DNA from: a virus
Direction: 5' to 3' (one strand)
IMG/VR virus record: IMGVR_UViG_3300014039_000006
DNA length: 64,000 nucleotides
Under the pieces are notes generated by a model. The model saw only the letters and a list, made by a program, of their open reading frames with translations, was not told the DNA's origin and searched no databases. Position 1 is the stretch's first letter; each line of letters begins with the position of its first letter. Positions 2,460-36,405 of this stretch are shown in pieces. The position numbers and the translations under genes are program-made.

Positions 2460-3299
2460 ATGGCAATTAATAAAGTGGAATATAGCGGAAATACATTAAT
2501 TGACTTGACTTCTGACAGCGTGACACCGGAATCTTTGCTTTCCGGTGTCACTGCGCATGATGCGTCAGGAAATTTGATTACAGGAGAACTTAATCCGCAA
2601 AAAATATTTGATAATGCCGGATATCACAACAGTATTTTTCGCGGAAAGAACTTGGGAACGTCTGTCACGGAAGAACAATACGAAGCTATTTCTTCCGGAG
2701 AGTTCACAGATTTATTTGTTGGCGATTACTGGACTTTGAATAACGTAGTTTACCGTATCGTCGGCTTTGACCTGTTTTTACATACAGGAGATACAGAACT
2801 TACAACGCATCACGTTGTTATTGTTCCTGATAAAAATATGTACAGTCACGCGATGAACGATACAAATGTGACTACAGGTGGTTATTATAACAGCAAAATG
2901 AAACAAAGTGGTCTGACACAGGCTCTGACTACGGTAAAGGCGGCATTTGGTGAAAGTCACATAGTAAAAAGAAGAGTAATTTTGACGAATGCCATAAGTG
3001 GAGATAATCCATCCGGATGGGCGTGGTACGATACCTACATTGACCTTATGACAGAACGGCAGGTATATGGATCTCCTGCATGGGGACAGGCGGCACATAA
3101 TGGATATGATGCCGGATGTGAGTATTCAAGACTCCCATTGTTTACACTTGCACCGGAATTTATCACAAATAGAGCATGGTATTGGCTGCGAGATATCCGG
3201 TCGTCGTCTGCCTTCGCCGATGTCGGCAGCCTTGGCGGTGCCGACGGCGCCGGCGCGTCCTACTCCGGCGGGGTTCGCCCGCTTTTTTTAATCTCTTAA
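2460..3299 (+). CDS. DGR target protein 1 (putative receptor-binding protein with C-terminal variable region)
   Basis: AAGGAG SD. The C-terminus WYWLRDIRSSSAFADVGSLGGADGAGASYSGGVRPLFLIS is encoded by VR1. Lies directly upstream of avd-TR-RT. Confidence 0.85.
   Translation: MAINKVEYSGNTLIDLTSDSVTPESLLSGVTAHDASGNLITGELNPQKIFDNAGYHNSIFRGKNLGTSVTEEQYEAISSGEFTDLFVGDYWTLNNVVYRIVGFDLFLHTGDTELTTHHVVIVPDKNMYSHAMNDTNVTTGGYYNSKMKQSGLTQALTTVKAAFGESHIVKRRVILTNAISGDNPSGWAWYDTYIDLMTERQVYGSPAWGQAAHNGYDAGCEYSRLPLFTLAPEFITNRAWYWLRDIRSSSAFADVGSLGGADGAGASYSGGVRPLFLIS
3194..3281 (+). repeat. DGR variable region VR1
   Basis: Colinear with TR 3901-3988. All 21 mismatches are at TR adenine positions. Confidence 0.9.
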
Positions 3300-3349: not shown

Positions 3350-3877
3350 ATGTCAGAAATACCAAAGTCAAGAAGAAAAGAATCAAAATTAGAAGTAATC
3401 CACAAAGCATATAGACTACGTTCAAGAATAACAAATGAGCTAATATGCAGTTTCGGATATTCTCAAAAGAAATATGAAGCACATTTAAACAAGGCGGTAA
3501 GACATATTCGGGATGAAACAGAACGTAAGGAGAAGAAAGAAGTTTTACGCAAAATGGAAGAAAACTTTGATTTCTGGATTATTGAAAAAGAAAGAGATGA
3601 TATCCTGCATTACACAAAAGGGATCGTAAATCATCTTATATCTGCAAACACGATATATCCGGTCAACGTACCGGAATATGAAGAGCGAAGACTGGAAATG
3701 GACAGGGCATTAGTGTGTTGCACGTGTCTTCAACAGGAATTGCAGTACATTGCAGAAGTTCTTCCGTCCGACAAGAATAAATACATGAACATAGTGCTTG
3801 AAATTCAAACGATTCGAGAAATGATAAAGGGACTTCGACAATCTGACAACAGATTTTTAAGAGATATTAAGAAATAA
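3350..3877 (+). CDS. avd: Accessory variability determinant (Avd)-like protein
   Basis: 175-aa basic, helical-looking ORF between the target gene and TR, with a GGAGAAAGGAA SD. ATG at 3350 is chosen because the upstream part of track ORF 3176 overlaps VR1. Confidence 0.7.
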   Translation: MSEIPKSRRKESKLEVIHKAYRLRSRITNELICSFGYSQKKYEAHLNKAVRHIRDETERKEKKEVLRKMEENFDFWIIEKERDDILHYTKGIVNHLISANTIYPVNVPEYEERRLEMDRALVCCTCLQQELQYIAEVLPSDKNKYMNIVLEIQTIREMIKGLRQSDNRFLRDIKK

Positions 3878-3900: not shown

Positions 3901-3988
3901 TATCCAGTCGTCGTCTAACTTCGCCAATGTCAACAACAATGGCAATGCCAACAACAACGACGCGTCCAACTCCAACGGAGTTCGCCCG
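3901..3988 (+). repeat. DGR template repeat (TR)
   Basis: Contains 26 adenines and reads as AAY-rich SSNFANVNNNGNANNNDASNSNGVRP. Matches VR1, VR2 and VR3. Confidence 0.9.
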
Positions 3989-4029: not shown

Positions 4030-5346
4030 ATGGGAAAGGAAAGGTTATCCATTCAGTGGAAACTGATAAAAGAAAATTCCGATATACTAAGTTACGACAA
4101 GGTATTAGAAACGGGGTTAAATATGAATCCATTAATAGATGCGAATAGTTTATATGACGCCGGAACACTTGCAATAAAAAGCAGCAGCTTCAAGTACAAA
4201 ACACAATTATTTGAAATGAACCATCTTTTGGAAACTGCATTATTGCAGAGAGAATTGCAAGAAGGAACGTATAAGCCGGAAAAAGGAACAAAGTTTCTGA
4301 TCCATGAAAGAGGAAAAATCAGATACATCACAAGCAACACGATGAGGGATAAAACGGTTAACCATGTGTTGTGTGATGAAATCGTCATACCATCCATAGA
4401 AAAGTACTTGATTTACGACAACAGCGCTTCGCAGAAAGGCAAGGGAACTTCTTTTGCCAGAAAGAGACTGGAAGAACACTTGCACAGTTATTATAGAAAA
4501 TATGGAACTAATGACGGCTATATCTTGTTGATGGATTTTTCTGGTTATTATGCAAATATTCCACACGATAAATGCAAGGACATTCTGTATAGAATGGTTT
4601 TCCGAGACGGACTTGAAGAAGAACCGACCAAAACAGTAATTGAAAATATTTTTAAATCCTACGAAATGGATGTTTCCTATATGTCTGATGAAGAAATAAA
4701 AGTCTTGTATAGCACAAAGGTAGATCCTGTAATGAACCAAAACGTTCCGAAAGAATTGCTTACAGAACAAAAGATGCTAAAGAAAGGAGCGGACATAGGA
4801 AATCAGCTTGCTCAAGCAATAGGAATTACTTTTCCTTATAAGATTGATAATTATGTGAAAATCGTAAGAGGGTGCAAATTTTACGCCAGATATACGGATG
4901 ACAGCTATATTATTTCGAGCGATAGGGAATTTTTGTTTGATGTTTTGGACGGTATTAAAGAAATTGCGGATGAACATGGAATCATATTGAACAAAAAGAA
5001 AACGAGGATAGTAAAGATTTCCTCGTTTTTCAGATTTATGCAGATAGGATATTCCCTAACTGCCACAGGAAAAGTGATAAAGAAAATAAATCCTAAAAAT
5101 GTGAGAAGGGAAAGGGTGAAGCTGAAAAAATATAAAAAGTTGTTAGATAATGGAAAAATGACATATGCAGACATAGAAAATTGCTTTAAGTCTTGGATAT
5201 GTACATACTGGAAAATTATGTCGCACCAACAATTATACAATATGAACGCCCTGTATAAGGAGCTGTTTGGAAAGGGAATAAAATGGAAAACGAAAAATTC
5301 ACGATTACATTGGTTGATGGAACACAGTTCACCGGACTTTCAATGA
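4030..5346 (+). CDS. DGR reverse transcriptase
   Basis: RT motifs: LLMDFSGYYANI, NSASQKGKG (SQ motif) and the catalytic YTDD box (ARYTDDSYII). Immediately downstream of TR. An alternative start is at 4123 (MNPLID). Confidence 0.85.
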   Translation: MGKERLSIQWKLIKENSDILSYDKVLETGLNMNPLIDANSLYDAGTLAIKSSSFKYKTQLFEMNHLLETALLQRELQEGTYKPEKGTKFLIHERGKIRYITSNTMRDKTVNHVLCDEIVIPSIEKYLIYDNSASQKGKGTSFARKRLEEHLHSYYRKYGTNDGYILLMDFSGYYANIPHDKCKDILYRMVFRDGLEEEPTKTVIENIFKSYEMDVSYMSDEEIKVLYSTKVDPVMNQNVPKELLTEQKMLKKGADIGNQLAQAIGITFPYKIDNYVKIVRGCKFYARYTDDSYIISSDREFLFDVLDGIKEIADEHGIILNKKKTRIVKISSFFRFMQIGYSLTATGKVIKKINPKNVRRERVKLKKYKKLLDNGKMTYADIENCFKSWICTYWKIMSHQQLYNMNALYKELFGKGIKWKTKNSRLHWLMEHSSPDFQ

Positions 5347-9710: not shown

Positions 9711-9759
9711 GGTATCACCTCCTTATAGGAGAGTATAACACACGGAAAGGAGAAACGAA

Positions 9760-18677: not shown

Positions 18678-19034
18678 ATGAAGATTATTGAGGGAAAAGA
18701 AAAAGAATACAAGGAATGGTACGACAAAAATAGCGATGCTTATAGCAGAGCATGTTTTACATTCGCAGAAAGATGGGCGGAACTTTTGGAAGAAAAAATA
18801 GACAACTCTTCCGATTGCCCGATGAAGGTAATTGTCGATAACGCAGAACAATTAAGTGACGAAGCAGACACAGAAGGAATCACGGGATTTATGTATGGTT
18901 GCGCTGTTAATATTCTCTCGAGAGAATGGGAATACGGCGATGAATTGAGAAGATGGCATAACGGAAAATACGATTATCAGGGCGAAGGAACTGTAAATCC
19001 GGCTATTCTTACGGTTGGTGGCAAAGATGATTAA
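18678..19034 (+). CDS. Hypothetical protein
   Basis: 118-aa ORF in the array. Confidence 0.5.
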   Translation: MKIIEGKEKEYKEWYDKNSDAYSRACFTFAERWAELLEEKIDNSSDCPMKVIVDNAEQLSDEADTEGITGFMYGCAVNILSREWEYGDELRRWHNGKYDYQGEGTVNPAILTVGGKDD

Positions 19035-19731
19035 TCTGAAATGCCTATCTTCCGGAAGTAAAGGGAACTGCTATCTTCTGGAAGCTGATAACGGAGAAGT
19101 GCTTATCATTGATGCCGGAATACCAATCATGGATATTAAGCGTGGTCTGAACTGGAATGTAAGAAGTGTAGTCGGTGCGGTTGTTACGCACCGGCACACA
19201 GACCACAGTAAAAGCATTGATGATTTACGTCACATGGGAATAAGGGTTGTTGCACCGTATGAATCCGGAAATGTAAAGTCCATGAGTTTTTCGATGGGAA
19301 GTTTCAAGATGCAGGCTTTTGATGTTCCACATAACGGTTGTTGGAATAACGGATTTTTGATTAAGACTCCGGACGGACAGAAAATCTTGTATATGACCGA
19401 TTTGGAGTATTGCCCGTATTCTTTCCGGAAGCAGAGCGTAGACCATATGCTTATCGAGTGCAATTACATGAAATCACTGGTTGATACGGACGCTCCGAAT
19501 TATGTTCACAAGATTCGAGGTCACTGTGAACTGGAAACGACAAAAGGAATCGTCAAAGAGAACGCAACAAATAGCCTTGTAAACGTTATATTGTGTCATT
19601 TGGGGCGTGATACTTGCGAAGAGGACAAAGTTATCGAAGAAGTAAAAAAGATCGTTCCTAAAGCCAATGTGGACGTTGCAAAAGTCGGTAAGGAATGGAT
19701 TTTAAGAAAGGGCGGTGAGTGTCCGTTTTGA
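19015..19731 (+). CDS. Metallo-beta-lactamase-fold hydrolase
   Basis: HxHxDH motif in VVTHRHTDHSKS. 238 aa. Confidence 0.75.
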   Translation: MVAKMINLKCLSSGSKGNCYLLEADNGEVLIIDAGIPIMDIKRGLNWNVRSVVGAVVTHRHTDHSKSIDDLRHMGIRVVAPYESGNVKSMSFSMGSFKMQAFDVPHNGCWNNGFLIKTPDGQKILYMTDLEYCPYSFRKQSVDHMLIECNYMKSLVDTDAPNYVHKIRGHCELETTKGIVKENATNSLVNVILCHLGRDTCEEDKVIEEVKKIVPKANVDVAKVGKEWILRKGGECPF

Positions 19732-20938: not shown

Positions 20939-21505
20939 ATGAAGGTAAAAAGAACAGTAACAATGAAAGTTAGCAATTTTGAGGTTGGCGATCGGATCAC
21001 CGTAAAACTTTCTGGATATGGGAAGTTTACGGCTACGGCACACGAGATCACAGACAAGGGAACACTATTTATCTTTGATGATTGTGTTTGTGAAAGACAA
21101 ATGAACGAAGAAAATACGAATGAAGGTGGATATTTGGAATCAGACCTTAGAAAGTTTGTGGCACAGGATCTGTTAAAGGCATTTCCGGATAAACTTTTGG
21201 AGAGAATGGCAAAGGACGATAACGGAGATCTACTTTCCATTCCGACCTACGGACAGGTTTTGGGTAAAGACTGGGACGATGAGTGGGATGAGAAAAACAT
21301 TGAGATCGACAAGAGAGAACAATTGCCACTGATGCAGAAAAGAAAGAACCGGATTGCAGATTTACAAAACGAATGGACATGGTACTGGTTGCAAAATAAA
21401 GTCCTGTCGTCGTCTGCCTTCGCCGGTGTCGGCGGCGATGGCTATGCCGGCTACGCCGGCGCGTCCGACTCCGGCGGGGTTCGCCCAGCTTTCCTAATCA
21501 AGTAA
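20939..21505 (+). CDS. DGR target protein 2 (remote VR; paralogue of 27084..27653)
   Basis: C-terminus WYWLQNKVLSSSAFAGVGGDGYAGYAGASDSGGVRPAFLIK is encoded by VR2. TTGGAGGA SD before the ATG at 20939. Confidence 0.85.
   Translation: MKVKRTVTMKVSNFEVGDRITVKLSGYGKFTATAHEITDKGTLFIFDDCVCERQMNEENTNEGGYLESDLRKFVAQDLLKAFPDKLLERMAKDDNGDLLSIPTYGQVLGKDWDDEWDEKNIEIDKREQLPLMQKRKNRIADLQNEWTWYWLQNKVLSSSAFAGVGGDGYAGYAGASDSGGVRPAFLIK
21401..21486 (+). repeat. DGR variable region VR2
   Basis: Colinear with TR. All 22 internal mismatches are at TR adenines. Confidence 0.9.
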
Positions 21506-21512
21506 TCATTAA

Positions 21513-21535
21513 TCCACGCCCCGTGTGGGCGTGGA
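21513..21535 (+). promoter_or_regulatory. GC hairpin downstream of VR2
   Basis: TCCACGCCC-CGTGT-GGGCGTGGA, identical to the copy after VR3. Confidence 0.65.
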
Positions 21536-21565
21536 AATGGAAGTAAATTAAAGGAGTGACAAGAA

Positions 21566-21808
21566 ATGAAAATTGAATGTTTGGATTTAAGACCTTGTAA
21601 ATATGATGGAAAAAACTATCTTTTTCATTGTTGGGAGCATTTTTCAGAGATTGTGGAACCATCACCATTGATGGGAGGACATTGTGGTGGAGTAGTTGGT
21701 TGTACTTTTGGAATTGTGGAAGATGAAAACGGAAAAGTTTTTCGGGTTCCAGCCTACGAAATTACATTTACTGATAACAAGTTTAGAGAATATTGTTTTG
21801 TGGATTAA
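21566..21808 (+). CDS. Hypothetical protein
   Basis: AAAGGAG SD. Confidence 0.5.
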   Translation: MKIECLDLRPCKYDGKNYLFHCWEHFSEIVEPSPLMGGHCGGVVGCTFGIVEDENGKVFRVPAYEITFTDNKFREYCFVD

Positions 21809-21830
21809 ATTAAAGGAGTGAAAATAAAAG

Positions 21831-21998
21831 ATGAATGAAAATTATTACAAGAATATGCCGGAAGACTTCCGGAAAGCGGTAGCGGTAATCAAGGATTACT
21901 GCCAGAATGAAGAATGTGCAGCAGACTGTGAATGTGACAACTGTCCGTATCCGTTAAGCATGATACGGTGTGGGGATCGTTTAAAGGAAGTAAATTAA
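21831..21998 (+). CDS. Hypothetical Cys-rich small protein
   Basis: 55-aa ORF not in the track (MNENYYKNMPEDFRK...CQNEECAADCECDNCPYP), with an AAAGGAG SD. Confidence 0.45.
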   Translation: MNENYYKNMPEDFRKAVAVIKDYCQNEECAADCECDNCPYPLSMIRCGDRLKEVN

Positions 21999-22015
21999 AG
22001 TTTAGGAGGACAAAC

Positions 22016-22342
22016 ATGCAGGAAGCGTTTAAAAGAATTCTGTCAAAGCTTGAGGGAATAGAAGTACACTGTTTAGAAATGAGTGATTGGCAAGGACAGA
22101 ATGCGATTGAAAGTGCTATTGAAATTGTCAAACAGGAACAACAAAGTTACATTGGAAATTGGATTCCATGTAGCGAAAGGCTCCCTGATAAAGAAGGAAG
22201 CTATTTGGTTGTAGGAAAGACAGGCGGTGCCGTTGTTACAAGATGGTATGCACCAAGCAAATATTATCCGAATGGTCATTTCGGTGGAAATTGTGCAGAT
22301 TACATCAGATATTGGATGCCAAGACCGATAGCACCAGAATAA
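22016..22342 (+). CDS. DUF551-type phage protein
   Basis: WIPCSERLPDKEGSY motif. TAGGAGG SD. Confidence 0.6.
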   Translation: MQEAFKRILSKLEGIEVHCLEMSDWQGQNAIESAIEIVKQEQQSYIGNWIPCSERLPDKEGSYLVVGKTGGAVVTRWYAPSKYYPNGHFGGNCADYIRYWMPRPIAPE

Positions 22343-22381
22343 AAAGCGGAACTAAACTGAAATTTAGGAGGAATAATAAAA

Positions 22382-22582
22382 ATGGCAAAATACACTGTAT
22401 ATGGAAACTATATCTTTCCATGCGTTTTGGGTGAATATGAAGCTGATTCACAGGAAGAAGCTATTCAAATGGCATTAGACGATGCAGAACCCGATATGGG
22501 ATTATGTTATACCTGTTCCAGAAAATTTTCGGATAGTGGAATGCTTGATGAAGAATCTTGCACAGCAGAAATTGAAGATTAA
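22382..22582 (+). CDS. Hypothetical protein
   Basis: TAGGAGG SD. Confidence 0.5.
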   Translation: MAKYTVYGNYIFPCVLGEYEADSQEEAIQMALDDAEPDMGLCYTCSRKFSDSGMLDEESCTAEIED

Positions 22583-22594
22583 CGGAGGTAAACC

Positions 22595-22900
22595 ATGAAA
22601 TATGTAATTGAATTAGAACCAATCAAGGGAACAAACCTTTATAAGGCGAAAGGATTTAACACACTGGTGTTTGATGAGTACGGATTGCAACAGCTTACAC
22701 CGTATGAGGTCATTAGATTACCCCGAATTGGAGATACCATAAGAAACGAGAACGGAACAGCACTTTATGAGTTCAGAGGTTATGACAAAAATGGAAGAAT
22801 CAATGCGGTAAATAAATCGAGTGGAAGGTTTGCAAATTTAAGCAGAGACCATATCGTCGTTGTAGACGATAAAACTAATCCGGAAAAAATAGAGTGCTAA
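22595..22900 (+). CDS. Hypothetical protein
   Basis: GGAGG SD. Confidence 0.5.
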   Translation: MKYVIELEPIKGTNLYKAKGFNTLVFDEYGLQQLTPYEVIRLPRIGDTIRNENGTALYEFRGYDKNGRINAVNKSSGRFANLSRDHIVVVDDKTNPEKIEC

Positions 22901-22916
22901 AGGAGAACGATGCAGA

Positions 22917-23501
22917 TTGAGTTATCAAGATATAAGAAAGCAAAAGGCGATAGAGCAGAAGAACCGGAAACGACTGTTGGAAGTGAATGGGAGCCTTGAT
23001 GATAGTAGCGGAATTTACTTTTTGACACGAACGGACGAAAACGGCATTAAATACGCCTACATCGGACAGGCAAAGCACATTCTCACAAGGCTTGCACAGC
23101 ACCTTGTCGGTTATCAGCATATCGACCTCTCGTTGAAGTCTCATGGTTTGTATTCTGTTGATAATATTTACGGTTGGAAGATTGGGTTTCTGCATTTTCC
23201 GTTAGAAAAACTGGACGAAAAAGAACAATATTACATAAGGCAGTATGCAGTGAATGGTTATCAGCTTCGGAACAAAACCGGTGGCGGTCAAGGAAAAGGG
23301 AAAGAGAAGATTGACGAATACCGACCGGTGAAAGGCTACTATGACGGATTGAAACAAGGTAGAAAGAACCTTGCGAGGGAATTGTCCTGTATCATTGAAA
23401 AACACCTTGTTATTTCTTTGAAAGCGGAGAAACAGGGAAATAAGGTTTCACAGAAGCAGTACGAAAAGTTTATGGATTTGCTAAAGGTTGGTGATGAGTG
23501 A
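22917..23501 (+). CDS. GIY-YIG nuclease-domain protein
   Basis: GIYFLTRTDENGIKYAYIGQAKHILTRLAQH. TTG start after AAAGGAG. Confidence 0.65.
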   Translation: MSYQDIRKQKAIEQKNRKRLLEVNGSLDDSSGIYFLTRTDENGIKYAYIGQAKHILTRLAQHLVGYQHIDLSLKSHGLYSVDNIYGWKIGFLHFPLEKLDEKEQYYIRQYAVNGYQLRNKTGGGQGKGKEKIDEYRPVKGYYDGLKQGRKNLARELSCIIEKHLVISLKAEKQGNKVSQKQYEKFMDLLKVGDE

Positions 23502-23624
23502 CATAGAAGAAATCCAAGGTAAAAGAGAGTATTGCAAGCGAAAAGAAGATCAAGCTGATTAAGAAAAAATAAAGAAAGGAATAAGGTTGTGCGCACATAA
23601 AACCATGGTTTCCTTTCGAGAGAA

Positions 23625-24461
23625 ATGAAAAAATTAAAATGCGAAATTTACAGAGATTCAATGCAAAACTACAAGAAATATGCAATCCCTCCGGCACAGC
23701 TTATTATTGCCGATGTCCCTTACAATGTAGGGAATAACTTCTACGGAAGCAACCCTATGTGGTATCAAGGTGGGGACAATAAAAACGGAGAAAGCAAACT
23801 TGCCGGAAAAGCCGCTTTTAATTCAGACTTCAACTTTAATCTTTATGAGTATTTTCATTTTTGTTCAAAAATGCTTAAGAAAGAGCCTAAGAAATCCAGC
23901 GTAAGAGGTAGAAGTTCAGAAGCACCATGCATGATTGTATTTTGTTCTTTTGAACAGATGTACACATTGATTGAAGCGGCTAAAAAGCACGGATTTGTTC
24001 ATTACATACCACTTGTATTTGTCAAAAATTACAGTCCGCAAGTATTAAAAGCAAATATGAGAATTGTGGGAGCTACGGAATATGCCCTTGTGCTTTACAG
24101 GAATAAGTTGCCGAAATTTAGAAACGGTGCGAAGTTTGACGAAGAAGGTAAAACCATTCGTGGAACTGGAAAGATGATCTTTAACTGGTTTTCATGGGAG
24201 AAAGACGGAAAAGATATTCCGAAAATTCATCCGGCACAGAAACCAGTAGTGGTACTAAAGAAGCTAATCGAGATTTTTACAGACGAAGGAGATGTTATTA
24301 TAGACCCTTGTTGTGGAAGCGGAAGCACGTTAAGAGCCGCAACAGAAATGGGTAGAAGTGCTTTTGGATTTGAAATTGACCGGAATTTCTATCAAAGAGC
24401 CAAAGAAGAAATGCTTAATTTTGAAAAAGAAAATCAAATGAGCATATTCGATTATGAATAA
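23625..24461 (+). CDS. DNA methyltransferase (N6-A / N4-C, beta class)
   Basis: Motif IV IADVPYN precedes motif I IDPCCGSGSTLRAA. Confidence 0.8.
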   Translation: MKKLKCEIYRDSMQNYKKYAIPPAQLIIADVPYNVGNNFYGSNPMWYQGGDNKNGESKLAGKAAFNSDFNFNLYEYFHFCSKMLKKEPKKSSVRGRSSEAPCMIVFCSFEQMYTLIEAAKKHGFVHYIPLVFVKNYSPQVLKANMRIVGATEYALVLYRNKLPKFRNGAKFDEEGKTIRGTGKMIFNWFSWEKDGKDIPKIHPAQKPVVVLKKLIEIFTDEGDVIIDPCCGSGSTLRAATEMGRSAFGFEIDRNFYQRAKEEMLNFEKENQMSIFDYE

Positions 24462-24511
24462 ATATATTCTAACTGGAATAAGAAAATTCACGGAACTTGA
24501 AAGGAGTAAAA

Positions 24512-25075
24512 ATGCCAAAACATTATGATGATCCACAGGAAATTGCAAGAATGATGGTGGAATTGAAACGTTTACGGCAGACGGCGCAGAGAAGTCCGTT
24601 TACCGGATTGCTTACCATTTTCTGCTATGTCCTTTGGAAAGATTACAAATATAGCCAAACAAAACTTGCGAAATTCTGTGAGGACTTTTCAAAGTACGAT
24701 GCAGAATATGACGGACAGAATATTTCCGAACTTGATAACGGGTTATGGGATTATGCCGATTGGAAAGTGGAATTTACGCCGTATACTGAAAAGGATTATC
24801 CGTTTTACAAGTCCCCTATGGCACAGAAAGTAGTACGGGAACAGGTGAAAGCCAACAACGAAATTAATGAGAAAGCGACGAGGTATTTAACCTACGGATT
24901 TACGGTTTTGATGAATGACGGAACGAAGAAACAGAAGTTGACAAACATCAAAGATAAAATCCAGAAGCGCATTGATGAAGTGACCGCCGATGAAAGAGAC
25001 AAGTGCATCATGGATTTGTGGAAAGAGTTGGTTGACGAAGCCGGAATTTACATTGAGAAACCGGTGATCGATTAA
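24512..25075 (+). CDS. Hypothetical protein
   Basis: AAAGGAG SD. Confidence 0.5.
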   Translation: MPKHYDDPQEIARMMVELKRLRQTAQRSPFTGLLTIFCYVLWKDYKYSQTKLAKFCEDFSKYDAEYDGQNISELDNGLWDYADWKVEFTPYTEKDYPFYKSPMAQKVVREQVKANNEINEKATRYLTYGFTVLMNDGTKKQKLTNIKDKIQKRIDEVTADERDKCIMDLWKELVDEAGIYIEKPVID

Positions 25076-25094
25076 AGGAAAGGAGTTGTTATGA

Positions 25095-25790
25095 GTGAAA
25101 GGAAAACGAACGTTTGACATAAAGCTTGTTAGTTCCGACACTTTTCTTAATATGCCGATATCTGCACAATGTTTATTCTTCCACCTTTGCATCAGGGCAG
25201 ACGATGAAGGATTTGTTGACCGTGTAAAAAGCATTATAAAACAGTGCGGTGCTACGGATGAAGATTTGGAAGTGTTGAAGAAAAAGAGATACGTTCTTAC
25301 ATTTCCAGAATCGAATGTCATCGTGATTAAACACTGGAAACTTCACAATCTGATTGACAAGGACGAGTTTGAATCTACGGTATATGCCGAGGAAAAGTCA
25401 AAACTGTACGAAAAAGAGAACGGTGCTTATACCTTTGATTCACGCAAGGCTGAAAAGTTGAGTGACAAATTGAATATTGGTGAAAGAAAAACTCAATTAG
25501 ATACCGTAAAAGAAGTGATTTCCTATTTAAACGAGAAATGCGGTACGAAATACCGTTACTCCACGCTTGCTAATCAGAGAGGAATCGTTGCAAGGCTTAA
25601 TGAGGGAAATTACACCGTTGAAGATTTTAAGGCAGTGATTGATAAAAAGGTGGCTGATTGGGGAAATAACCCTACAATGTGCACCTATTTACGACCGGAA
25701 ACTTTGTTCGGAAACAAGTTTGAAAGCTATCTTAATCAGTTATCTTCTTCCGGAAAAACTGAATTTGACGAATGGGGTGATTGCCGTTGA
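25095..25790 (+). CDS. Replisome organizer / DnaD-like phage replication protein
   Basis: C-terminal VISYLNEKCGTKYRYSTLANQRGIVARLNEGNYTVEDFKAVIDKKVADW...YLRPETLFGNKFESY (phage conserved C-terminal / DnaD-like repeat). Confidence 0.7.
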   Translation: MKGKRTFDIKLVSSDTFLNMPISAQCLFFHLCIRADDEGFVDRVKSIIKQCGATDEDLEVLKKKRYVLTFPESNVIVIKHWKLHNLIDKDEFESTVYAEEKSKLYEKENGAYTFDSRKAEKLSDKLNIGERKTQLDTVKEVISYLNEKCGTKYRYSTLANQRGIVARLNEGNYTVEDFKAVIDKKVADWGNNPTMCTYLRPETLFGNKFESYLNQLSSSGKTEFDEWGDCR

Positions 25791-26413
25791 CACGTGATGA
25801 AACAATAGAAATTTTGATGATGGTTCAAGCCGCTTACCCGAATTTTAACGTACCGGACAAAAAAGTCACGGTCAACACATGGTTTCTCTTCTTTGAGAAT
25901 TACTCGGTTGATGTGATTAAGGGAGCATTAATGGCATACATCACAAGTGATAAGAACGGATTCGCTCCGGCAATCGGACAGATTATCGAAATTGCAGAGT
26001 CCATGACAAACGCACAGGAACTTGACAGTATGGCGGCGTGGTCTCTTGTCAGTAAGTCATTGCGAAATGGATATTATCACGCAAGGGAAGAGTTTGAAAA
26101 ACTGCCGAAACTGGTACAACAAGCGGTCGGAAGTCCGGACAATCTTCGAAATTGGAGTACATCGGATTATAGTGCTATCGAAACTGTGATCCAGAGCAAC
26201 TTCTTACGGTCTTACCGGATATGCGTTGAACGTGACAAGAAAATGCGTTGTATGCCGGAACAAATCAGAAACCAGATCGAAAACAATATACCTGTTTTTC
26301 ATCTTCCGGAATCAGAACCGAAACCGATGATTGAGCAAAATAAAACGGACGGAATTTCAGAAAAAACGGAAAAGTTGCTGGAAGAGTTTAAAAGAAAGGA
26401 AATGATGAATTGA
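25781..26413 (+). CDS. G39P-like helicase loader/inhibitor-domain protein
   Basis: TIEILMMVQAAYPNFNVPDKKVTVNTWFLFFENYSVDVIKGAL resembles the SPP1 G39P family. Confidence 0.5.
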   Translation: MPLTRDETIEILMMVQAAYPNFNVPDKKVTVNTWFLFFENYSVDVIKGALMAYITSDKNGFAPAIGQIIEIAESMTNAQELDSMAAWSLVSKSLRNGYYHAREEFEKLPKLVQQAVGSPDNLRNWSTSDYSAIETVIQSNFLRSYRICVERDKKMRCMPEQIRNQIENNIPVFHLPESEPKPMIEQNKTDGISEKTEKLLEEFKRKEMMN

Positions 26414-26820
26414 TGAAAGATTATTGTATTTTCCACGAACGAATGAAAAGCAGAATGAATCTTTGTTGTATGACCGGAAGAGAACTTTCCGAAAAGACGG
26501 GAATAACAGAAGTTTCAATAAGCAGATATTTAACAGGGCAAAGAGTTCCAAAAGCGACAGAAATAATAAAAATTGCAAATGCTTTGAATTGCTCTTGTGA
26601 TTATCTTTTAGGGAAAAATCCGAAGAAAAATTTATCCATCAAAGAAGCTATCAACATTCTTGAATTAAATAGACCTTTTGAAGAAAATGAACTTCAAAAT
26701 GCGCTTGATATTGCGATCGAATCGTTAAAAATGCAAATAAAAATGGAAAAAGAATGTTCTACTTATGATGAGTGCCGCAAGTGTAATATTTGCCTTAGCG
26801 ATTTCATTATAGAAAAGTGA
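26410..26820 (+). CDS. XRE-family HTH protein
   Basis: MTGRELSEKTGITEVSISRYLTGQRVPKATEIIKIANALNCSCDYLLG. Confidence 0.7.
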   Translation: MMKDYCIFHERMKSRMNLCCMTGRELSEKTGITEVSISRYLTGQRVPKATEIIKIANALNCSCDYLLGKNPKKNLSIKEAINILELNRPFEENELQNALDIAIESLKMQIKMEKECSTYDECRKCNICLSDFIIEK

Positions 26821-26862
26821 ATGAACGGAAACATGAATATCCAGTATTGAGAAAGGATCCTT

Positions 26863-27066
26863 ATGAAGCAAACATTCATAGTAAGAATTAAAACTAATCA
26901 CAAAAGTTTTAACAAATGGATTAAAGAACATGATAAGACAGTAAGAGAAAAAGTACTCGATGATGCGATTCTTTATTTTGAGAAGCACGCACACGAGGTA
27001 TACGACCATGTGAGCGCAAGGGATTTTATTTGCGACAGGTTGGAAGAACTTAAAAACAAAAATTAA
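26863..27066 (+). CDS. Hypothetical protein
   Basis: AAAGGA SD. Confidence 0.45.
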   Translation: MKQTFIVRIKTNHKSFNKWIKEHDKTVREKVLDDAILYFEKHAHEVYDHVSARDFICDRLEELKNKN

Positions 27067-27083
27067 GAATGGAGGAATTTAAA

Positions 27084-27653
27084 ATGAAAGCATGGAGAAA
27101 AGTAAAAATGGAGATCAAAAACTATGAGGTCGGAGATCAGATCGCGGTGAAACTCAAAGGCTTCGGAAAATTTACTGCAACGGCACAGAGAGTTTATGAC
27201 GATGGAAAAACGCTGTTTCTTTTCGATAACTGCGTTGCAGAACGGCAGATGAACGAAAACGGTTCAAATTCCGGAGGTTTTTATGAATCCGACTTATGCA
27301 AGTGGATGAATACAGAATTGGTGAAAACTTTTCCCACTAAACTTCTTGACCGCATGATTTATACGAACGAAGAACATGAATGCCTGCTTCGAATTCCGAC
27401 AAGAAAGGAAATGTTCGGAGAAGATGAATATAGTCAATATTACGAACCGGATAACGAGGAACAATTTGAACTTATGAAAGACAGAAAAAACCGTGTTTGT
27501 TCTCTTCCTGATGATGAATATGCATGGTATTGGTTGATGAATGCGCATCTCCGGTCGTCGTCTTACTTCGCCCCTGTCAGCGCCAGTGGCCGTGCCAACG
27601 GCTTCGGCGCGTCCAGCTCTGGCGGGGTTCGCCCGGCTTTCCTAATCAAGTAA
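27084..27653 (+). CDS. DGR target protein 3 (remote VR; paralogue of 20939..21505)
   Basis: C-terminus WYWLMNAHLRSSSYFAPVSASGRANGFGASSSGGVRPAFLIK is encoded by VR3. The N-terminal ~140 aa align with target 2. Confidence 0.85.
   Translation: MKAWRKVKMEIKNYEVGDQIAVKLKGFGKFTATAQRVYDDGKTLFLFDNCVAERQMNENGSNSGGFYESDLCKWMNTELVKTFPTKLLDRMIYTNEEHECLLRIPTRKEMFGEDEYSQYYEPDNEEQFELMKDRKNRVCSLPDDEYAWYWLMNAHLRSSSYFAPVSASGRANGFGASSSGGVRPAFLIK
27548..27635 (+). repeat. DGR variable region VR3
   Basis: Colinear with TR. 20 mismatches are at TR adenines, plus one C->T at 27620. Confidence 0.9.
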
Positions 27654-27660
27654 TCATTAA

Positions 27661-27683
27661 TCCACGCCCCGTGTGGGCGTGGA
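27661..27683 (+). promoter_or_regulatory. GC hairpin downstream of VR3
   Basis: TCCACGCCC-CGTGT-GGGCGTGGA. Confidence 0.65.
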
Positions 27684-27719
27684 AATGGAAGTGAAATTAA
27701 AATTTCGGAGGTAAAGTAG

Positions 27720-28307
27720 ATGGCACAATATAGAACAAAATCATGTGAAATTGAAGCAATTCAATGGACTGATAATACAAATGAAATAAAATCATTTTGT
27801 GGAAATAGTTGCACATATTCCGTAGAAGAACAGTGCATGGGAAGTTGGAAAGGCATTCCGATCGAGAGATTGATTATTCACACATTGGAAGGAGATATGG
27901 TTGCAAGCAGAAACGACTACATCATAAAAGGATTGAAAGGTGAATTTTATCCATGCAAGCCAGATGTATTTAACCAAAAGTATAAATTAATAAATGATAC
28001 TATGGAAATACAAGAAGAGCAGAGATGGATACCGGTAACTGAAAGGTTGCCAGAAGAACTTACACCAGTAAATATTACGTGGATAAATAGAAATCCTGAA
28101 CAATATTATGCGGATATAAAGGATGTTCCTTTTTCCACTACAGGAGTTTTTCATCGCGGAAAGTGGTATTGGTGGTCTACGGTAGTTGTTGATTATCTTT
28201 CAGAATATGGAAGATATGACATGGATTTGGTAGATAAAGATATTGAAATTATAGCATGGCAACCGTTGCCGGAGCCGTACAAAGGAGAAAATAACCACAA
28301 TATGTAG
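27720..28307 (+). CDS. DUF551-type phage protein
   Basis: WIPVTERLPEE motif. GGAGG SD. Confidence 0.6.
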   Translation: MAQYRTKSCEIEAIQWTDNTNEIKSFCGNSCTYSVEEQCMGSWKGIPIERLIIHTLEGDMVASRNDYIIKGLKGEFYPCKPDVFNQKYKLINDTMEIQEEQRWIPVTERLPEELTPVNITWINRNPEQYYADIKDVPFSTTGVFHRGKWYWWSTVVVDYLSEYGRYDMDLVDKDIEIIAWQPLPEPYKGENNHNM

Positions 28308-28333
28308 CAATCCCGGATTACAAGATATTGTAT
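28293..28333. repeat. 41-bp imperfect-palindrome repeat, copy 1
   Basis: AACCACAATATGTAGCAATCCCGGATTACAAGATATTGTAT matches 39326-39366 at 38 of 41 positions, in the same orientation. Confidence 0.8.
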
Positions 28334-28350
28334 GGAAAGTGAGGAAAATA

Positions 28351-29115
28351 ATGGCAAGGAGAGAATTGTTACACATAAGTAAATTAAATGATTTTGGGAA
28401 ATGGCTTGAAGAACAAGGATATATGATTTTACCAACGAGCAAAAATCCATATGAGGTTTTAAGAGCAAAAAAGGATAAGGATATAGTAATCATTTATTGC
28501 AAAGCAAGTAGTAAGGAACATTTGTCCATAATGGATAAGGATTATTCTTTGATTCGAAGATTTATCAACGAAAGTAAGAAGAATGTCAATGTCGACCGAA
28601 TTGAGAACATGACGGAGAATGAAGCGGTTAAGTATATGAAGATAGAAAGAGAGTGCATTAATCGAAATTGCGACAGGAATTGCGCAGAATGCGATATTGT
28701 ACAGGAAGTAGATGATCTGAACAGTGCTTATGATGTCGCGATTAAGGCGTTGAAAGACATTTCTTGGTATCAGGCATTGGGAAATAAAGAAGAATGCCAA
28801 AAAGCATTTATTCTTTACAGGGAAATGTATAAGCGAAAGTTTACGCTTGAAATCGTGGAAGAGTACATGAAGTTTGAAGACGAATGTCTAAGAAAGAACT
28901 TTACTTTTAAGAGTTTGATCGAAGCAAGAGAAAAGCAGACACCAAAGCAGCCATGTCTTGAAGGTGACGGATACGCAGATGGACATCTTGTATATAACAC
29001 GTGGATCTGTCCTTGCTGCGGCAAGTATTATGAGATTGACTATGAAAAATATGATTACTGCCCGAATTGCGGACAGGCTGTAGATTGGAGTATGGAAAAT
29101 GAAGATATTGATTGA
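28351..29115 (+). CDS. Hypothetical protein with C-terminal zinc ribbon
   Basis: CPCCGKYYEIDYEKYDYCPNCG. Confidence 0.5.
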   Translation: MARRELLHISKLNDFGKWLEEQGYMILPTSKNPYEVLRAKKDKDIVIIYCKASSKEHLSIMDKDYSLIRRFINESKKNVNVDRIENMTENEAVKYMKIERECINRNCDRNCAECDIVQEVDDLNSAYDVAIKALKDISWYQALGNKEECQKAFILYREMYKRKFTLEIVEEYMKFEDECLRKNFTFKSLIEAREKQTPKQPCLEGDGYADGHLVYNTWICPCCGKYYEIDYEKYDYCPNCGQAVDWSMENEDID

Positions 29116-29560
29116 TATTCCAAAAGAATTTGAGATTGATTACCGTACAGACAGATTCGCTGACTTTTTTGGTCGTGTTGAAGCTGACATGGATGTGATA
29201 TGCGGCAACTATGAGAGAGAAACAGCGGATATGATGGTAAATGCTTTTGCCGAAAGCAGACCATACGATTTGGACGTAGTTATGGAGCAGTTAGAATCGA
29301 GAACGGATATTGACAAAATAATAGGGAAAAAGAAAGAATACGGAAGGTGGATTCCAGTAGAAGAATACCTACCTCCGATACCAGAAAGCGAATACATACA
29401 CATTCTTCATTCAAGCGAAGTTGTTGCCGTATTATCTGATTGCGGAAACGTATTTATTGCTAAATACAACTTTGGTATTGAAAGGTGGATAGGGGCATCG
29501 GATCATAAAATTACTCATTGGACTCCATTACCGGAAACACCCGAGAAAGGAATAAAATGA
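29099..29560 (+). CDS. DUF551-type phage protein
   Basis: WIPVEEYLPP motif. Confidence 0.55.
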   Translation: MKILIDIPKEFEIDYRTDRFADFFGRVEADMDVICGNYERETADMMVNAFAESRPYDLDVVMEQLESRTDIDKIIGKKKEYGRWIPVEEYLPPIPESEYIHILHSSEVVAVLSDCGNVFIAKYNFGIERWIGASDHKITHWTPLPETPEKGIK

Positions 29561-35055: not shown

Positions 35056-36405
35056 ATGAAGATTTGTCCTAAATGCAGTTCATTTGCAAATGATGATTCA
35101 AATTTCTGTCCAAGATGTGGATCTAACCTTGATACCAATATTCCGGTTTCTAATCATTCACAATTAAGAACGGAGAAAAACAAGAATAAAGTGTCTGCAT
35201 CTGCAATAGTAGCTACTGTTATAGGAACTATTGCTTTGTGCCTGTACTTTAGTTATTTTTCATTATTTGTTGGAACGGTAGGTATAATTGTTGGAATTAT
35301 TGCGATTGCGCTATCAAGATCGGATAGGAGCAGATTTATTTCAATAATCGGAATTTCATTTTCAGTATTGGCTTTTATTACATTCTTTGCCTTTCAAAGA
35401 GAACAGGCTAATAATGAAAAACCAAATGAACAAAAAGAAGAAATTGCCGTTGAAACACCTAGTCCGACCGTTGAACCGACAGAAGCACCTATAAACTATA
35501 AAGAAGTTTTTCTCTATGATTTGATTTTGAATAGTACATCGTATGTAAATCAATATGTGGAAACTTCATTTTCCATACATTATTGTTATCCAAAAGAAAA
35601 TGATGGATTAACGGAAATTGCGAGTGAATATACGGATTATGACTTAACCGGAGAAATGGATAATATTTTTATTTATCTTGACGGGTTAGTGGAGTATGAA
35701 ATGGATCAGTATATTACTGTCCGAGGAAGGTTTGTATACAAAGATTCTAGATACTGTATTATTGATGCCGAGGTTACCGACATTGGTTCGCAATCCGAGA
35801 AGAGTTTTCAAGACGGTCTCATCATTTACACGCATTACCGGAACGAGGAATTACAGGCAAGCAAGGAAAGTTTTATTGCAAGTTGTGTGGAAGTGTCCTA
35901 TGATGATCTTTTGCGTTATCCGGAAACCTATCAAGATGTGCCGATTAAACTCACCATAGTTGCATCTGATGTAAAAGCAGACGGTTGGATTTTCAAGGGA
36001 GATATTCTTGCGGAGTATCAAGGCGGCGACTTGATTGTGTTTGACGATCGAGAAGTCCGTGAGCCGAGACTTGTTAACGGAGATAAGGTGACCGTTTATG
36101 CGACAGGTGACGGACTTGGAAAGATGAAGATAAAAGAGGATCGTTTCATATACGAAAAGACCGTAGATGATTACAACGTACCGCAGATAAGCATTAAGTA
36201 CACGGAGTGGGATAAAGCGTTTACGGAAATGGATAGCAGTTCAAAGGCAAGCGACGACGGCGACCTCTATGATGAAGGTAAGCGTGCCGGAGATGACCTT
36301 GCAGAAACACTAGGAGAAATTGATTGGGACGAAAACAAGGAAGATGCGAGAGAAGCCGGAGAAGAACTTGCGGAATACATAAACGAAATAATAGGTGCAG
36401 AATAA
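35056..36405 (+). CDS. Zinc-ribbon membrane protein
   Basis: CPKCSSF...CPRCGS, then three hydrophobic segments, a large extracytoplasmic-looking domain and an acidic tail. Confidence 0.6.
   Translation: MKICPKCSSFANDDSNFCPRCGSNLDTNIPVSNHSQLRTEKNKNKVSASAIVATVIGTIALCLYFSYFSLFVGTVGIIVGIIAIALSRSDRSRFISIIGISFSVLAFITFFAFQREQANNEKPNEQKEEIAVETPSPTVEPTEAPINYKEVFLYDLILNSTSYVNQYVETSFSIHYCYPKENDGLTEIASEYTDYDLTGEMDNIFIYLDGLVEYEMDQYITVRGRFVYKDSRYCIIDAEVTDIGSQSEKSFQDGLIIYTHYRNEELQASKESFIASCVEVSYDDLLRYPETYQDVPIKLTIVASDVKADGWIFKGDILAEYQGGDLIVFDDREVREPRLVNGDKVTVYATGDGLGKMKIKEDRFIYEKTVDDYNVPQISIKYTEWDKAFTEMDSSSKASDDGDLYDEGKRAGDDLAETLGEIDWDENKEDAREAGEELAEYINEIIGAE

What the first reader, a model, noticed from the sequence alone, without database searches (positions are those of the whole stretch)
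27084..27683. Third DGR variable region VR3, 23.6 kb from the template, in a paralogue of target 2
27548-27635 is colinear with TR, with 20 differences at TR adenines and a single non-adenine change (TR C3973 versus T27620). The host ORF aligns with target 2 along its length (MKVKRTVTMKVSNFEVGDRITVKLSGYGKFTATA versus MKAWRKVKMEIKNYEVGDQIAVKLKGFGKFTATA). One TR therefore serves three VRs in two protein families. The lone non-A change may mark ordinary drift or reduced homing at this copy.
Basis: seen in the sequence. Interest (0 to 1): 0.7.

Follow-up and report, generated by a model that had tools for sequence, protein, structure and literature searches.

The report
Third active DGR target in phage
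A gut phage uses one reverse-transcriptase "mutator" template to rewrite three genes, and this third copy, 23.6 kb from the template, is real and still being rewritten; this layout has already been described in related gut phages.

Summary
27548-27635 is colinear with the template repeat (TR, 3901-3988). It differs at 20 of 26 TR adenines and at 1 of 62 other bases (Fisher p = 1.4e-13).

VR3 ends a 189-aa DUF6273 protein (27084-27653) that is 53% identical to target 2. It carries the same 3' flank and GC hairpin as the other two variable repeats.

VR3 is active, not decayed:
- A sister genome is identical over 20,570 bp except for 16 substitutions, all inside VR3. Fifteen lie at TR adenines. 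The sixteenth restores the TR base at the lone non-adenine site, 27620, which is a synonymous TCC/TCT change.
- In a relative whose TR has itself diverged at 7 positions, VR3 matches that relative's own TR at every non-adenine.
- VR-only variants on the same protein backbone also exist for targets 1 and 2. Target 1 has the most alleles.

The architecture is known: an adjacent large target plus a small DUF6273 target far away among replication genes. It has been reported for Roseburia phage Shimadzu (orf43, shown active by reads) and for Faecalibacterium Toutatis, Lelie and CP11. I also found it in Acutalibacter phage Fontainebleau.

This case has two paralogous remote targets. It is a new member of a known kind. 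The function of the small targets remains unknown.

The parts
27084..27653 (+). Target 3 gene. It encodes a 189-aa soluble DUF6273 protein with a small N-terminal beta-barrel followed by the DUF6273 domain. VR3 forms its C-terminal end.
   Evidence: Pfam PF19789 at 47.4 bits against a cut-off of 23.5. phrog_21980, E = 2.7e-43. 431 homologues, mostly 182-190 aa. AF2 model pLDDT 83.5. No hydrophobic N-terminus or transmembrane segment.
27548..27635 (+). VR3, the variable repeat colinear with the TR.
   Evidence: 20 A-site and 1 non-A difference from the TR. 16 substitutions against the sister genome L011, all within 27564-27626.
27620..27620 (+). The lone non-adenine difference (T here, C in the TR). 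It is a synonymous Ser change, TCC to TCT.
   Evidence: The sister allele in L011 and L012 has C at this site.
27624..27660 (+). GC-rich 3' end of VR3 plus the conserved spacer (GGGGTTCGCCCGGCTTTCC..TAATC..TAATC..AATC). This is the putative IMH-like target-recognition segment. It differs from the TR's 3' continuation.
   Evidence: Alignment of the three VR 3' ends against the TR 3' end. The assignment as IMH is inferred from the BPP-1 paradigm and was not tested.
27661..27683 (+). Hairpin downstream of the stop codon, with a 9-bp stem (TCCACGCCC/GGGCGTGGA) and a 5-nt loop.
   Evidence: DNA fold -13.1 kcal/mol, z = -4.7, 0 of 200 shuffles as stable. It is present after all three VRs and absent after the TR. 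Hairpins with different stems sit at the same place in distant relatives.
27636..27692 (+). 57-nt 3' flank that is 100% identical to the flank of VR2 (21488-21544).
   Evidence: The gene body upstream is only 63% identical. In a relative, both copies share two lineage-specific substitutions.
3901..3988 (+). Template repeat (TR), with 26 adenines.
   Evidence: It is identical in all near-isogenic genomes.
3350..3877 (+). Accessory gene, Avd-like, 175 aa.
   Evidence: phrog_3206 'Avd protein of DGR', E = 2.8e-5. Called as a 175-aa gene in relatives.
4030..5346 (+). DGR reverse transcriptase. An alternative start at 4123 gives 407 aa.
   Evidence: PF00078, E = 1.6e-12. The best solved relative is 8ub7, a 328-aa reverse transcriptase; the alignment covers the IGNQLAQ and YTDD motifs. 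Most homologues are called at about 407 aa.
2460..3299 (+). Target 1, 279 aa, the last gene of the tail module. It contains VR1 at 3194-3281.
   Evidence: VR1 differs by 7-15 substitutions in otherwise identical or 99%-identical genomes. Tail-gene context.
20939..21505 (+). Target 2, 188 aa, a DUF6273 paralogue. It contains VR2 at 21400-21487 and a hairpin at 21513-21535.
   Evidence: A VR2-only variant exists in L035/P0225.

Best explanation
VR3 is a functional, currently used target site of the phage's single diversity-generating retroelement (DGR).

Proposed mechanism:
1. The cassette at 2460-5346 comprises target 1, an Avd-like gene, the TR and the RT. It makes a TR-containing RNA.
2. The RT, with Avd, copies that RNA into cDNA and misincorporates opposite adenines.
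3. The cDNA replaces the homologous 88-nt stretch in trans at three sites of the ~66-kb genome: VR1 (0.7 kb upstream), VR2 (17.5 kb downstream) and VR3 (23.6 kb downstream).
4. Each site is marked by the same GC-rich 3' end, a conserved spacer and a GC hairpin.
5. In target 3 this recodes about 13 codons (TR codons AAC, AAT, GAC, CAG and ATC) at the C-terminus of a 189-aa soluble DUF6273 protein. The protein is encoded among replication and early genes.

Shown here:
- the adenine-specific TR/VR pattern;
- the shared 3' elements;
- VR3-only differences between near-isogenic genomes;
- co-variation of VR3 with a diverged TR in a relative.

Inferred from the BPP-1 paradigm:
- the RNA and cDNA steps;
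- the role of the IMH-like segment and the hairpin.

The protein's function is not shown. I take it to be a diversified ligand-binding module. Whether it acts on the virion, after lysis, or inside the infected cell is open. My estimate is roughly 55% for virion-associated or released at lysis, and 25-30% for intracellular.
For: (1) Pattern. 20 of 26 adenines and 1 of 62 other bases differ, p = 1.4e-13, and TR adenines fall at codon positions 1 and 2.

(2) Machinery in the same genome.
- An RT with an intact YTDD motif and an IGxxx(A/S)Q-like motif. Its closest solved relative is the 328-aa reverse transcriptase of 8ub7.
- An Avd-like gene.

(3) Recognition elements. All three VRs, but not the TR, are followed by the conserved spacer and a stable hairpin. 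Equivalent hairpins with different stems occur in distant relatives.

(4) Recent rewriting. L011 (ERZ27300201, a 66,074-bp contig) equals window 17084-37653 except for 16 substitutions, all in 27564-27626. Fifteen lie at TR adenines and one restores TR C at 27620. That allele has 20 A and 0 non-A differences from the TR. The same allele appears in a second assembly, L012.

(5) Long-term rewriting. In the lineage of L036 and L039 the TR differs at 7 of 88 positions. Its VR3 has 0 non-A and 19 A differences from that TR, while the gene body is 7.1% diverged from the window.

(6) Orthologues at 68-95% identity vary mostly at the TR-adenine codons.

(7) Precedent. The homologue orf43 of Roseburia phage Shimadzu (tblastn E = 3e-12) was shown by virion reads to be diversified by its DGR (bioRxiv 10.1101/575076).
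Against: - No sequencing reads were available, so within-population heterogeneity at VR3 was not measured.
- Only two VR3 alleles were found on this exact backbone, against many for VR1. Homing at VR3 may be rarer, or its variants less often retained.
- The window allele and the sister allele share 10 identical substitutions among the 26 adenine sites. This could reflect selection, the bias towards G, or partial rather than whole-VR replacement.
- The Avd assignment is weak (E = 2.8e-5).
- In the relative lineage, the TR (L039) and VR3 (L036) come from different samples' assemblies of what appears to be the same phage.
Confidence: 0.93

Rival explanations
1. VR3 is a decayed, no longer used relic of a former DGR target. 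Its resemblance to the TR is historical.
For: There is one non-adenine difference, at 27620. The 90% protein cluster for target 3 is small, with 3 members against 64 for target 1.
Against: - The non-A change is synonymous and absent from the sister allele.
- The only differences across 20.5 kb between two genomes are A-site changes in VR3.
- A relative's VR3 mirrors all non-A changes of its own TR.
- The IMH-like flank and the hairpin are intact.
Confidence: 0.02
2. The VR3 alleles are old DGR products shuffled between co-circulating phages by homologous recombination. Alternatively they are copied from VR1 or VR2 by gene conversion. On this view, homing at this copy is not ongoing.
For: - Recombination patches are seen nearby in near-identical genomes (28079-28340 and 29058-29251).
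- The 57-nt 3' flank of VR2 and VR3 evolves in concert, which implies some gene conversion between the paralogues.
Against: - The sister VR3 allele differs from VR2 at 18 positions of the 152-nt match, so it is not a copy of VR2.
- The exchanged tract would have to begin and end inside about 90 nt, with 10 kb of perfect identity on each side.
- The relative's VR3 carries every non-A variant of its own TR, which needs templating by that TR.
Confidence: 0.04
3. The VR3 sequence, or its difference from L011, is an assembly artefact caused by collapse or chimerism between the repeated VR2 and VR3 regions.
For: VR2 and VR3 share a 57-nt identical flank. Some SPAdes contigs break exactly there: L012 spans 21490-27690 and L016 ends at 27692.
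Against: - The exact target-3 protein is on at least 20 contigs from several samples and two assemblers.
- The sister allele is in two independent assemblies.
- VR2 and VR3 differ at 23 of 88 positions, and the genes are unambiguous upstream.
Confidence: 0.01

Closest known systems
Bordetella phage BPP-1 DGR (mtd VR, TR, avd, brt; IMH and downstream hairpin)
   Same: - Adenine-specific TR-to-VR substitution.
[quoted passage not shown]
- Target-Avd-TR-RT gene order.
- A GC-rich VR 3' end followed by a GC hairpin that is absent from the TR.
   Different: - Three targets instead of one, two of them 17.5 and 23.6 kb from the TR.
- The targets are DUF6273 proteins with no sequence or Foldseek match to Mtd.
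- The hairpin has a 9-bp stem and a 5-nt loop, and starts about 26 nt after the VR.
- The Avd-like protein is longer (175 aa).
Roseburia phage Shimadzu VR2 in orf43 (bioRxiv 10.1101/575076; LR596903)
   Same: - A small DUF6273-type protein homologous to target 3 (31.7% identity over 73% of the query, E = 3e-12).
- It is encoded among methyltransferase, Erf, SSB and replication genes.
- It is a second VR, far from a cassette that sits next to a tail gene.
- It was shown to be diversified in virion reads.
   Different: Shimadzu has one remote target and this phage has two paralogous ones. Shimadzu is reported as a myovirus. Its RT is only about 32% identical.
Faecalibacterium Toutatisvirus, Lelie and CP11: 'large and small' DUF6273 DGR targets (PMC11792537; bioRxiv 10.1101/2024.10.15.618418)
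   Same: One TR serves an adjacent larger target and a small DUF6273 protein of unknown function. In Toutatis that protein lies 17,480 nt from the TR. The VR sits at the C-terminus of DUF6273.
   Different: - Those phages have two VRs, not three.
- Their adjacent target is a Hoc-like or tentaclin protein with Ig domains. Here it is a 279-aa protein at the end of the tail module with no Pfam hit.
- No close sequence relationship to those phages turned up in the phage-collection searches.
Acutalibacter phage Fontainebleau (ON453893)
   Same: - It has the closest RT in the annotated phage collection (56% identity).
- It has a 41%-identical small DUF6273 homologue placed between the DNA polymerase and helicase genes.
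- I found that homologue to be a VR of a TR about 25 kb away. All differences across the roughly 85-nt core lie at TR adenines, and a downstream hairpin is present.
   Different: It has one remote target only, and its genome is 39 kb. The record annotates the gene as a hypothetical protein with no DGR feature in the stretches I fetched.
Multi-target and non-adjacent-target DGRs in general (Wu et al. 2018, PMC5758913; Treponema denticola)
   Same: [quoted passage not shown] Phage-associated DGRs often have a non-adjacent target within 50 kb, inside the same prophage. A DGR with three diversified targets is illustrated in that paper.
   Different: None in kind. This is another instance, with both remote targets being paralogues outside the structural module.

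Membership tests
DGR variable repeat (target site of a diversity-generating retroelement) | A TR/VR pair whose differences are essentially confined to TR adenines. | tested here: met
   20 of 26 A and 1 of 62 non-A differ, p = 1.4e-13. The sister allele has 20 A and 0 non-A differences.
DGR variable repeat (target site of a diversity-generating retroelement) | A DGR-type reverse transcriptase next to the TR in the same replicon. | tested here: met
   RVT_1 hit. The best PDB match is 8ub7, a 328-aa reverse transcriptase. IGNQLAQ and YTDD motifs are present. The TR lies 42 nt upstream of the RT gene, or 135 nt if the start at 4123 is used.
DGR variable repeat (target site of a diversity-generating retroelement) | An accessory protein (Avd or HRDC type) in the cassette. 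| tested here: met
   3350-3877 hits phrog_3206 'Avd protein of DGR' at E = 2.8e-5. There is no Pfam or NCBIfam hit, so the support is modest.
DGR variable repeat (target site of a diversity-generating retroelement) | The VR lies at the 3' end of an ORF, with TR adenines at codon positions 1 and 2 (AAY codons). | tested here: met
   Adenines by codon position: 12, 13 and 1. There are eleven AAC/AAT codons in frame.
DGR variable repeat (target site of a diversity-generating retroelement) | An IMH-like 3' boundary that differs between VR and TR, plus a downstream hairpin. | tested here: met
   Sequence and fold only. Whether these elements are required for homing is not testable with these tools.
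DGR variable repeat (target site of a diversity-generating retroelement) | Evidence of actual diversification: VR-restricted, A-site variation between otherwise identical genomes, and VR tracking of its own TR. | tested here: met
   L011 against the window: 16 of 16 differences lie in VR3 across 20,570 bp. A relative's VR3 has 0 non-A differences from its own diverged TR.
DGR variable repeat (target site of a diversity-generating retroelement) | RT-dependent, cDNA-mediated replacement of the VR (mutagenic homing). | not testable with these tools
   This needs an RT-mutant phage, or read-level time series.
DUF6273 (PF19789) / C-type-lectin-fold DGR target proteins | A Pfam DUF6273 match above the gathering score, with the VR at the C-terminus of the domain. 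| tested here: met
   Target 3 scores 47.4 bits and target 2 scores 36.9 bits against a cut-off of 23.5. The match runs to the last residue.
DUF6273 (PF19789) / C-type-lectin-fold DGR target proteins | A C-type-lectin-like fold, as in Mtd and TvpA. | tested here: inconclusive
DUF6273 (PF19789) / C-type-lectin-fold DGR target proteins | Target 1 belongs to the same family as targets 2 and 3. | tested here: inconclusive
   There is no Pfam hit. Full-length BLASTP gives E = 5e-16, but that score is driven by the TR-templated end. Outside the VR the match is E = 6e-4 at 17% identity, and hhalign probability is 21%.
Small remote DGR targets of Clostridia phages (Shimadzu orf43 type) | A protein of about 180-210 aa, homologous to orf43, encoded in the replication or early module far from the cassette, and lacking a signal peptide. 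| tested here: met
   Homology. Context in this phage; in Shimadzu and Fontainebleau; in L002. No hydrophobic N-terminus.

The most novel reading that the evidence does not exclude
The small DUF6273 targets (targets 2 and 3, and their relatives in Shimadzu, Fontainebleau and other Clostridia phages) may not be virion receptor-binding proteins. They may be early-expressed cytoplasmic binders that the phage diversifies for intracellular conflict, for example to neutralise variable host defence proteins or to exclude competing phages. Having two paralogues would allow two specificities at once.

Observations compatible with this reading:
- They have no signal peptide or transmembrane segment.
- They lie among replication genes in four distinct lineages.
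- In this phage a Tad4 anti-Thoeris homologue and an MBL-fold gene lie two to three genes upstream of target 2.

A second, smaller point: the 57-nt recognition flank of VR2 and VR3 evolves in concert without being part of the TR. This hints at a homogenising process beyond canonical homing.
Probability: 0.2. Interest if true: 0.8.

Novelty: new member of a known kind. Interest (0 to 1): 0.33.

Why it matters
This shows that a single phage DGR keeps three sites in register across 24 kb of a 66-kb genome. Near-isogenic natural genomes capture rewriting at each site separately, which gives a ready natural system for comparing homing frequency at adjacent and remote targets.

It also adds to a recurring and still unexplained class: small soluble DUF6273 proteins encoded among replication genes and hypermutated by DGRs in gut Clostridia phages. 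Their function is the real open question. If they act inside the cell, DGR-driven diversification would extend from adsorption to intracellular phage-host conflict.

As a genomic feature the finding is otherwise expected. Multi-target and non-adjacent phage DGR targets are documented, including a homologue of this protein.

Tried and rejected
- Megablast of the VR2-VR3 region and of the DGR cassette against 50,697 GenBank phages found no match.
- The IMG/VR scan with target 3 gave four loci at 54-79% identity, none with a TR in reach. The scan with the RT gave only relatives at 46% identity or less. Neither helped with TR/VR3 co-variation.
- The GTDB genome scan gave one 46% hit on a 3.4-kb MAG contig, so no host could be assigned.
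- The first AF2 run, on 31 close homologues, failed in the C-terminal half (pLDDT 60.8). A 93-sequence alignment fixed this.
- The attempt to place target 1 in DUF6273 outside the VR was inconclusive.
- I considered whether contig breaks at VR2 and VR3 indicate within-sample heterogeneity. I rejected this in favour of the 57-nt exact repeat, which is longer than a typical SPAdes k-mer.
- Which VR3 allele is ancestral could not be resolved.

Full report
**1. Observation**

The stretch 3901-3988 is the template repeat (TR). An ungapped scan of both strands, scoring mismatches at TR adenines separately, finds only four copies, all on the + strand:
- the TR itself;
- VR1 at 3194 (0 non-A, 21 A differences);
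- VR2 at 21400 (2 non-A at the two extreme ends, 22 A differences);
- VR3 at 27548 (1 non-A, 20 A differences).

Relaxing the limit to 14 non-A mismatches adds nothing. The 1,955 bp of the genome that the window lacks holds no further copy.

For VR3, 20 of 26 adenines and 1 of 62 other bases differ (Fisher p = 1.4e-13). The substituted bases are 12 G, 5 C and 3 T. TR adenines sit at codon positions 1, 2 and 3 in the ratio 12/13/1 in the target-3 frame, mostly as AAC/AAT codons. The lone non-A change, C3973 to T27620, is a synonymous Ser TCC-to-TCT change.

The host ORF is 27084-27653. Almost all homologues are called at 189 aa starting MKAWRK, and a GGAGG lies 8 nt upstream of the ATG. It is 53% identical to target 2 over its full length (E = 9e-63).

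**2. The element as a whole**

The cassette has the canonical order:
- target 1 (2460-3299), the last gene after the tape-measure and tail genes;
- an Avd-like 175-aa gene (3350-3877; phrog_3206 'Avd protein of DGR', E = 2.8e-5);
- the TR;
- the RT (4030-5346; RVT_1).

The RT's closest solved relative is 8ub7, a 328-aa reverse transcriptase. It has an IGNQLAQ motif aligned to that chain's IGSLTSQ, and an intact YTDD motif. Most homologues are called from the ATG at 4123.

Related contigs show that the window is 64,000 bp of a roughly 66,074-bp genome. Its two ends are joined by 1,955 bp of tail genes.

All three VRs, but not the TR, continue into a conserved spacer (..TAATC..TAATC..AATC..) and a GC hairpin. 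At VR3 the hairpin is 27661-27683, with a 9-bp stem and a 5-nt loop. It folds at -13.1 kcal/mol as DNA, with z = -4.7, and 0 of 200 shuffles fold as well. The TR's 3' flank folds no better than shuffles. Distant relatives have hairpins at the same place with different stem sequences. These are the features expected of DGR target-recognition elements in the BPP-1 paradigm. That functional assignment is inferred, not tested.

**3. Is VR3 in use?**

Three lines of evidence say yes.

(a) Locus L011 (ERZ27300201, a 66,074-bp contig) is identical to window 17084-37653 except for 16 substitutions, all between 27564 and 27626.
- Fifteen map to TR adenines. The sixteenth is 27620, where L011 carries the TR base C.
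- That allele has 20 A and 0 non-A differences from the TR.
- It recurs in an independent assembly, L012 (ERZ808256).
- The window's own allele occurs on at least 20 contigs from several samples.
- VR2 is unchanged in L011.

(b) In a moderately diverged lineage, the TR differs from the window's TR at 7 of 88 positions. In this lineage L036 carries VR2 and VR3, and L039 carries VR1 and the TR. The target-3 gene body is 7.1% diverged from the window. That lineage's VR3 has 0 non-A and 19 A differences from its own TR. VR3 is therefore kept in register with the TR over evolutionary time.

(c) Orthologues at 68-95% identity vary mostly in the TR-adenine codons.

**4. Which VRs are rewritten?**

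All three.
- VR1 differs by 7-15 substitutions from the window in L019, L020, L021 and L024. L019, L021 and L024 show no other differences; L020 is 99% identical overall. The TR is invariant in all four.
- Protein-cluster members with the window's exact backbone and VR-only changes exist for all three targets:
  - target 1: P0236, P0240, P0241 and P0246;
  - target 2: P0225;
  - target 3: P0001.
- At the DNA level, L035 (which encodes P0225) shows 11 A-site changes in VR2. It also shows two other differences, but the contig has only 2x coverage.
- The 90% clusters hold 64, 12 and 3 sequences for targets 1, 2 and 3. Among loci spanning both remote VRs, VR2 never changed and VR3 changed in one lineage.

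The adjacent target therefore shows more alleles than the remote ones. This could reflect homing frequency or selection, and I cannot separate the two.

**5. The lone non-A site**

T27620 is synonymous and fixed in every copy of the window's allele that I read. It is absent from the sister allele and from VR1, VR2 and the TR. It is either a point mutation since the last homing event or a rare RT error. Whichever allele is older, the other shows that the site is overwritten or created within a whole-VR replacement, because it lies between changed A-sites at 27615 and 27626. It does not indicate decay.

**6. The proteins**

- Targets 2 and 3 match Pfam DUF6273 above threshold, with the VR at the domain's C-terminus. 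Both hit phrog_21980, of unknown function.
- A 93-sequence alignment gave an AF2 model with pLDDT 83.5 and pTM 0.82. Confidence is low only in the VR segment.
- The best Foldseek PDB hit is 9qa6, the Thomasclavelia ramosa IgA peptidase (E = 2.4e-3). [quoted passage not shown] BFVD hits are DUF6273 phage proteins.
- The N-terminal ~45 residues form a small beta-barrel with only weak Tudor/KOW-like matches.
- None of the three targets has a signal-peptide-like or transmembrane segment.
- Target 1 misses the DUF6273 cut-off. Outside the TR-templated end it shows only a weak colinear match to target 3. 'Two families' is therefore acceptable at the sequence level.

**7. Context**

Targets 2 and 3 lie in the early and replication part of the genome. 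The order of genes is:
- Tad4 homologue (18678-19034, E = 7e-34);
- MBL-fold gene;
- SSB;
- HTH protein;
- target 2;
- GIY-YIG-like gene;
- N6/N4 methylase;
- Phg_2220_C replication protein;
- helicase-loader-like gene;
- HTH protein;
- target 3;
- DUF551 genes;
- large serine recombinase.

The homologues in Roseburia phage Shimadzu (orf43), Acutalibacter phage Fontainebleau and IMG/VR locus L002 also sit among replication and accessory genes. The target-2 paralogue is not universal: a Hadza prophage relative has a DNA methylase at that position.

**8. Comparison with what is known**

- Non-adjacent phage DGR targets within the same prophage, and DGRs with three diversified targets, are documented (Wu et al. 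2018, PMC5758913).
- Shimadzu's VR2 in orf43 was shown to be diversified in virion reads (10.1101/575076).
- Toutatisvirus has a second DUF6273 target 17,480 nt from the TR (10.1101/2024.10.15.618418).
- Lelie and CP11 have 'large and small' DUF6273 targets (PMC11792537).
- I also found that Fontainebleau (RT 56% identical) has the same layout. Its 'hypothetical protein' at 9330-9899 is a VR of a TR about 25 kb away, and all core differences lie at adenines.

VR3 is therefore a new member of a known kind. The only increment is two paralogous remote targets served by one TR.

**9. An unexplained detail**

The 57 nt after VR3 (27636-27692) cover the last five codons, the stop codon, the spacer and the hairpin. 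They are 100% identical to the corresponding flank of VR2, while the gene bodies are 63% identical. In the diverged lineage both flanks carry the same two substitutions, at 27664 in the stem and 27671 in the loop. The TR does not contain this flank, so canonical homing cannot homogenise it. The options are gene conversion between the paralogues' 3' ends, or joint selection by the recognition machinery.

**10. Verdict**

- Observation: confirmed.
- Interpretation: supported, and strengthened to 'active target'.
- Novelty: low.
- Open question: what these small, apparently non-secreted, replication-module DGR targets do.

Noticed in passing
window 27636-27692 and 21488-21544; L036 15269-15333 and 8550-8614: The 57-nt 3' flank of VR2 and VR3 (stop codon, spacer, hairpin) is identical within a genome although the genes are only 63% identical. 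In a diverged lineage both copies share the same two substitutions. The TR does not contain this flank, so something other than homing keeps the two copies alike, either gene conversion or joint selection.
   Followed up: partly
window 18678-19034 and 19015-19731: A clear homologue of the Thoeris inhibitor Tad4 (PF25186, E = 7e-34) is followed by a metallo-beta-lactamase-fold gene with a faint Apyc1 (anti-Pycsar) signal. Both lie just upstream of SSB and target 2, forming an anti-defence cluster in the early region.
   Followed up: partly
ON453893.1 (Acutalibacter phage Fontainebleau) 9330-9899 and about 35105-35190; loci L028 and L034: The 'hypothetical protein' WAK78934.1, between the DNA polymerase and helicase genes, carries a variable repeat of a TR about 25 kb away. 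All core differences lie at adenines and a hairpin lies downstream. A second VR sits in the gene next to the cassette. No DGR feature is annotated in the stretches I fetched.
   Followed up: yes
window 28079-28340 and 29058-29251: In otherwise identical genomes (L014, L015, L017), substitutions cluster in short patches within the DUF551-type genes downstream of target 3. There are 33 in about 260 bp and 18 in about 125 bp. These look like recombination tracts rather than DGR products, because the changes are not adenine-specific.
   Followed up: no
window ends (64000 joined to 1); L019 4017-5971: The window is 64,000 bp of a roughly 66,074-bp genome that assembles with different start points. 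1,955 bp of tail-gene sequence joins the window's end to its start. The phage appears in many human gut assemblies, including a 143-kb Hadza contig where it looks integrated.
   Followed up: partly
L012 (= window 21490-27690); L016 ends at window 27692: Several SPAdes contigs break exactly at the VR2 and VR3 3' flanks. The 57-nt exact repeat is the likely cause, so multi-VR DGR phages will tend to be fragmented at their remote targets. That would hide such targets from contig-based DGR surveys.
   Followed up: partly
L030 1109-2098; L036 6200-7959: The slot between the HTH gene and target 2 is variable among relatives. The Hadza relative has a cytosine methylase there and no target-2 paralogue within the 20.6 kb fetched. 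The L036 lineage has methylase genes, fragmented in some assemblies, inserted upstream of target 2, and a helicase between the two targets.
   Followed up: no
window 4030 versus 4123: Most RT homologues are called at about 407 aa, which corresponds to a start at ATG 4123 rather than 4030. That start would leave a 135-nt non-coding spacer after the TR.
   Followed up: no
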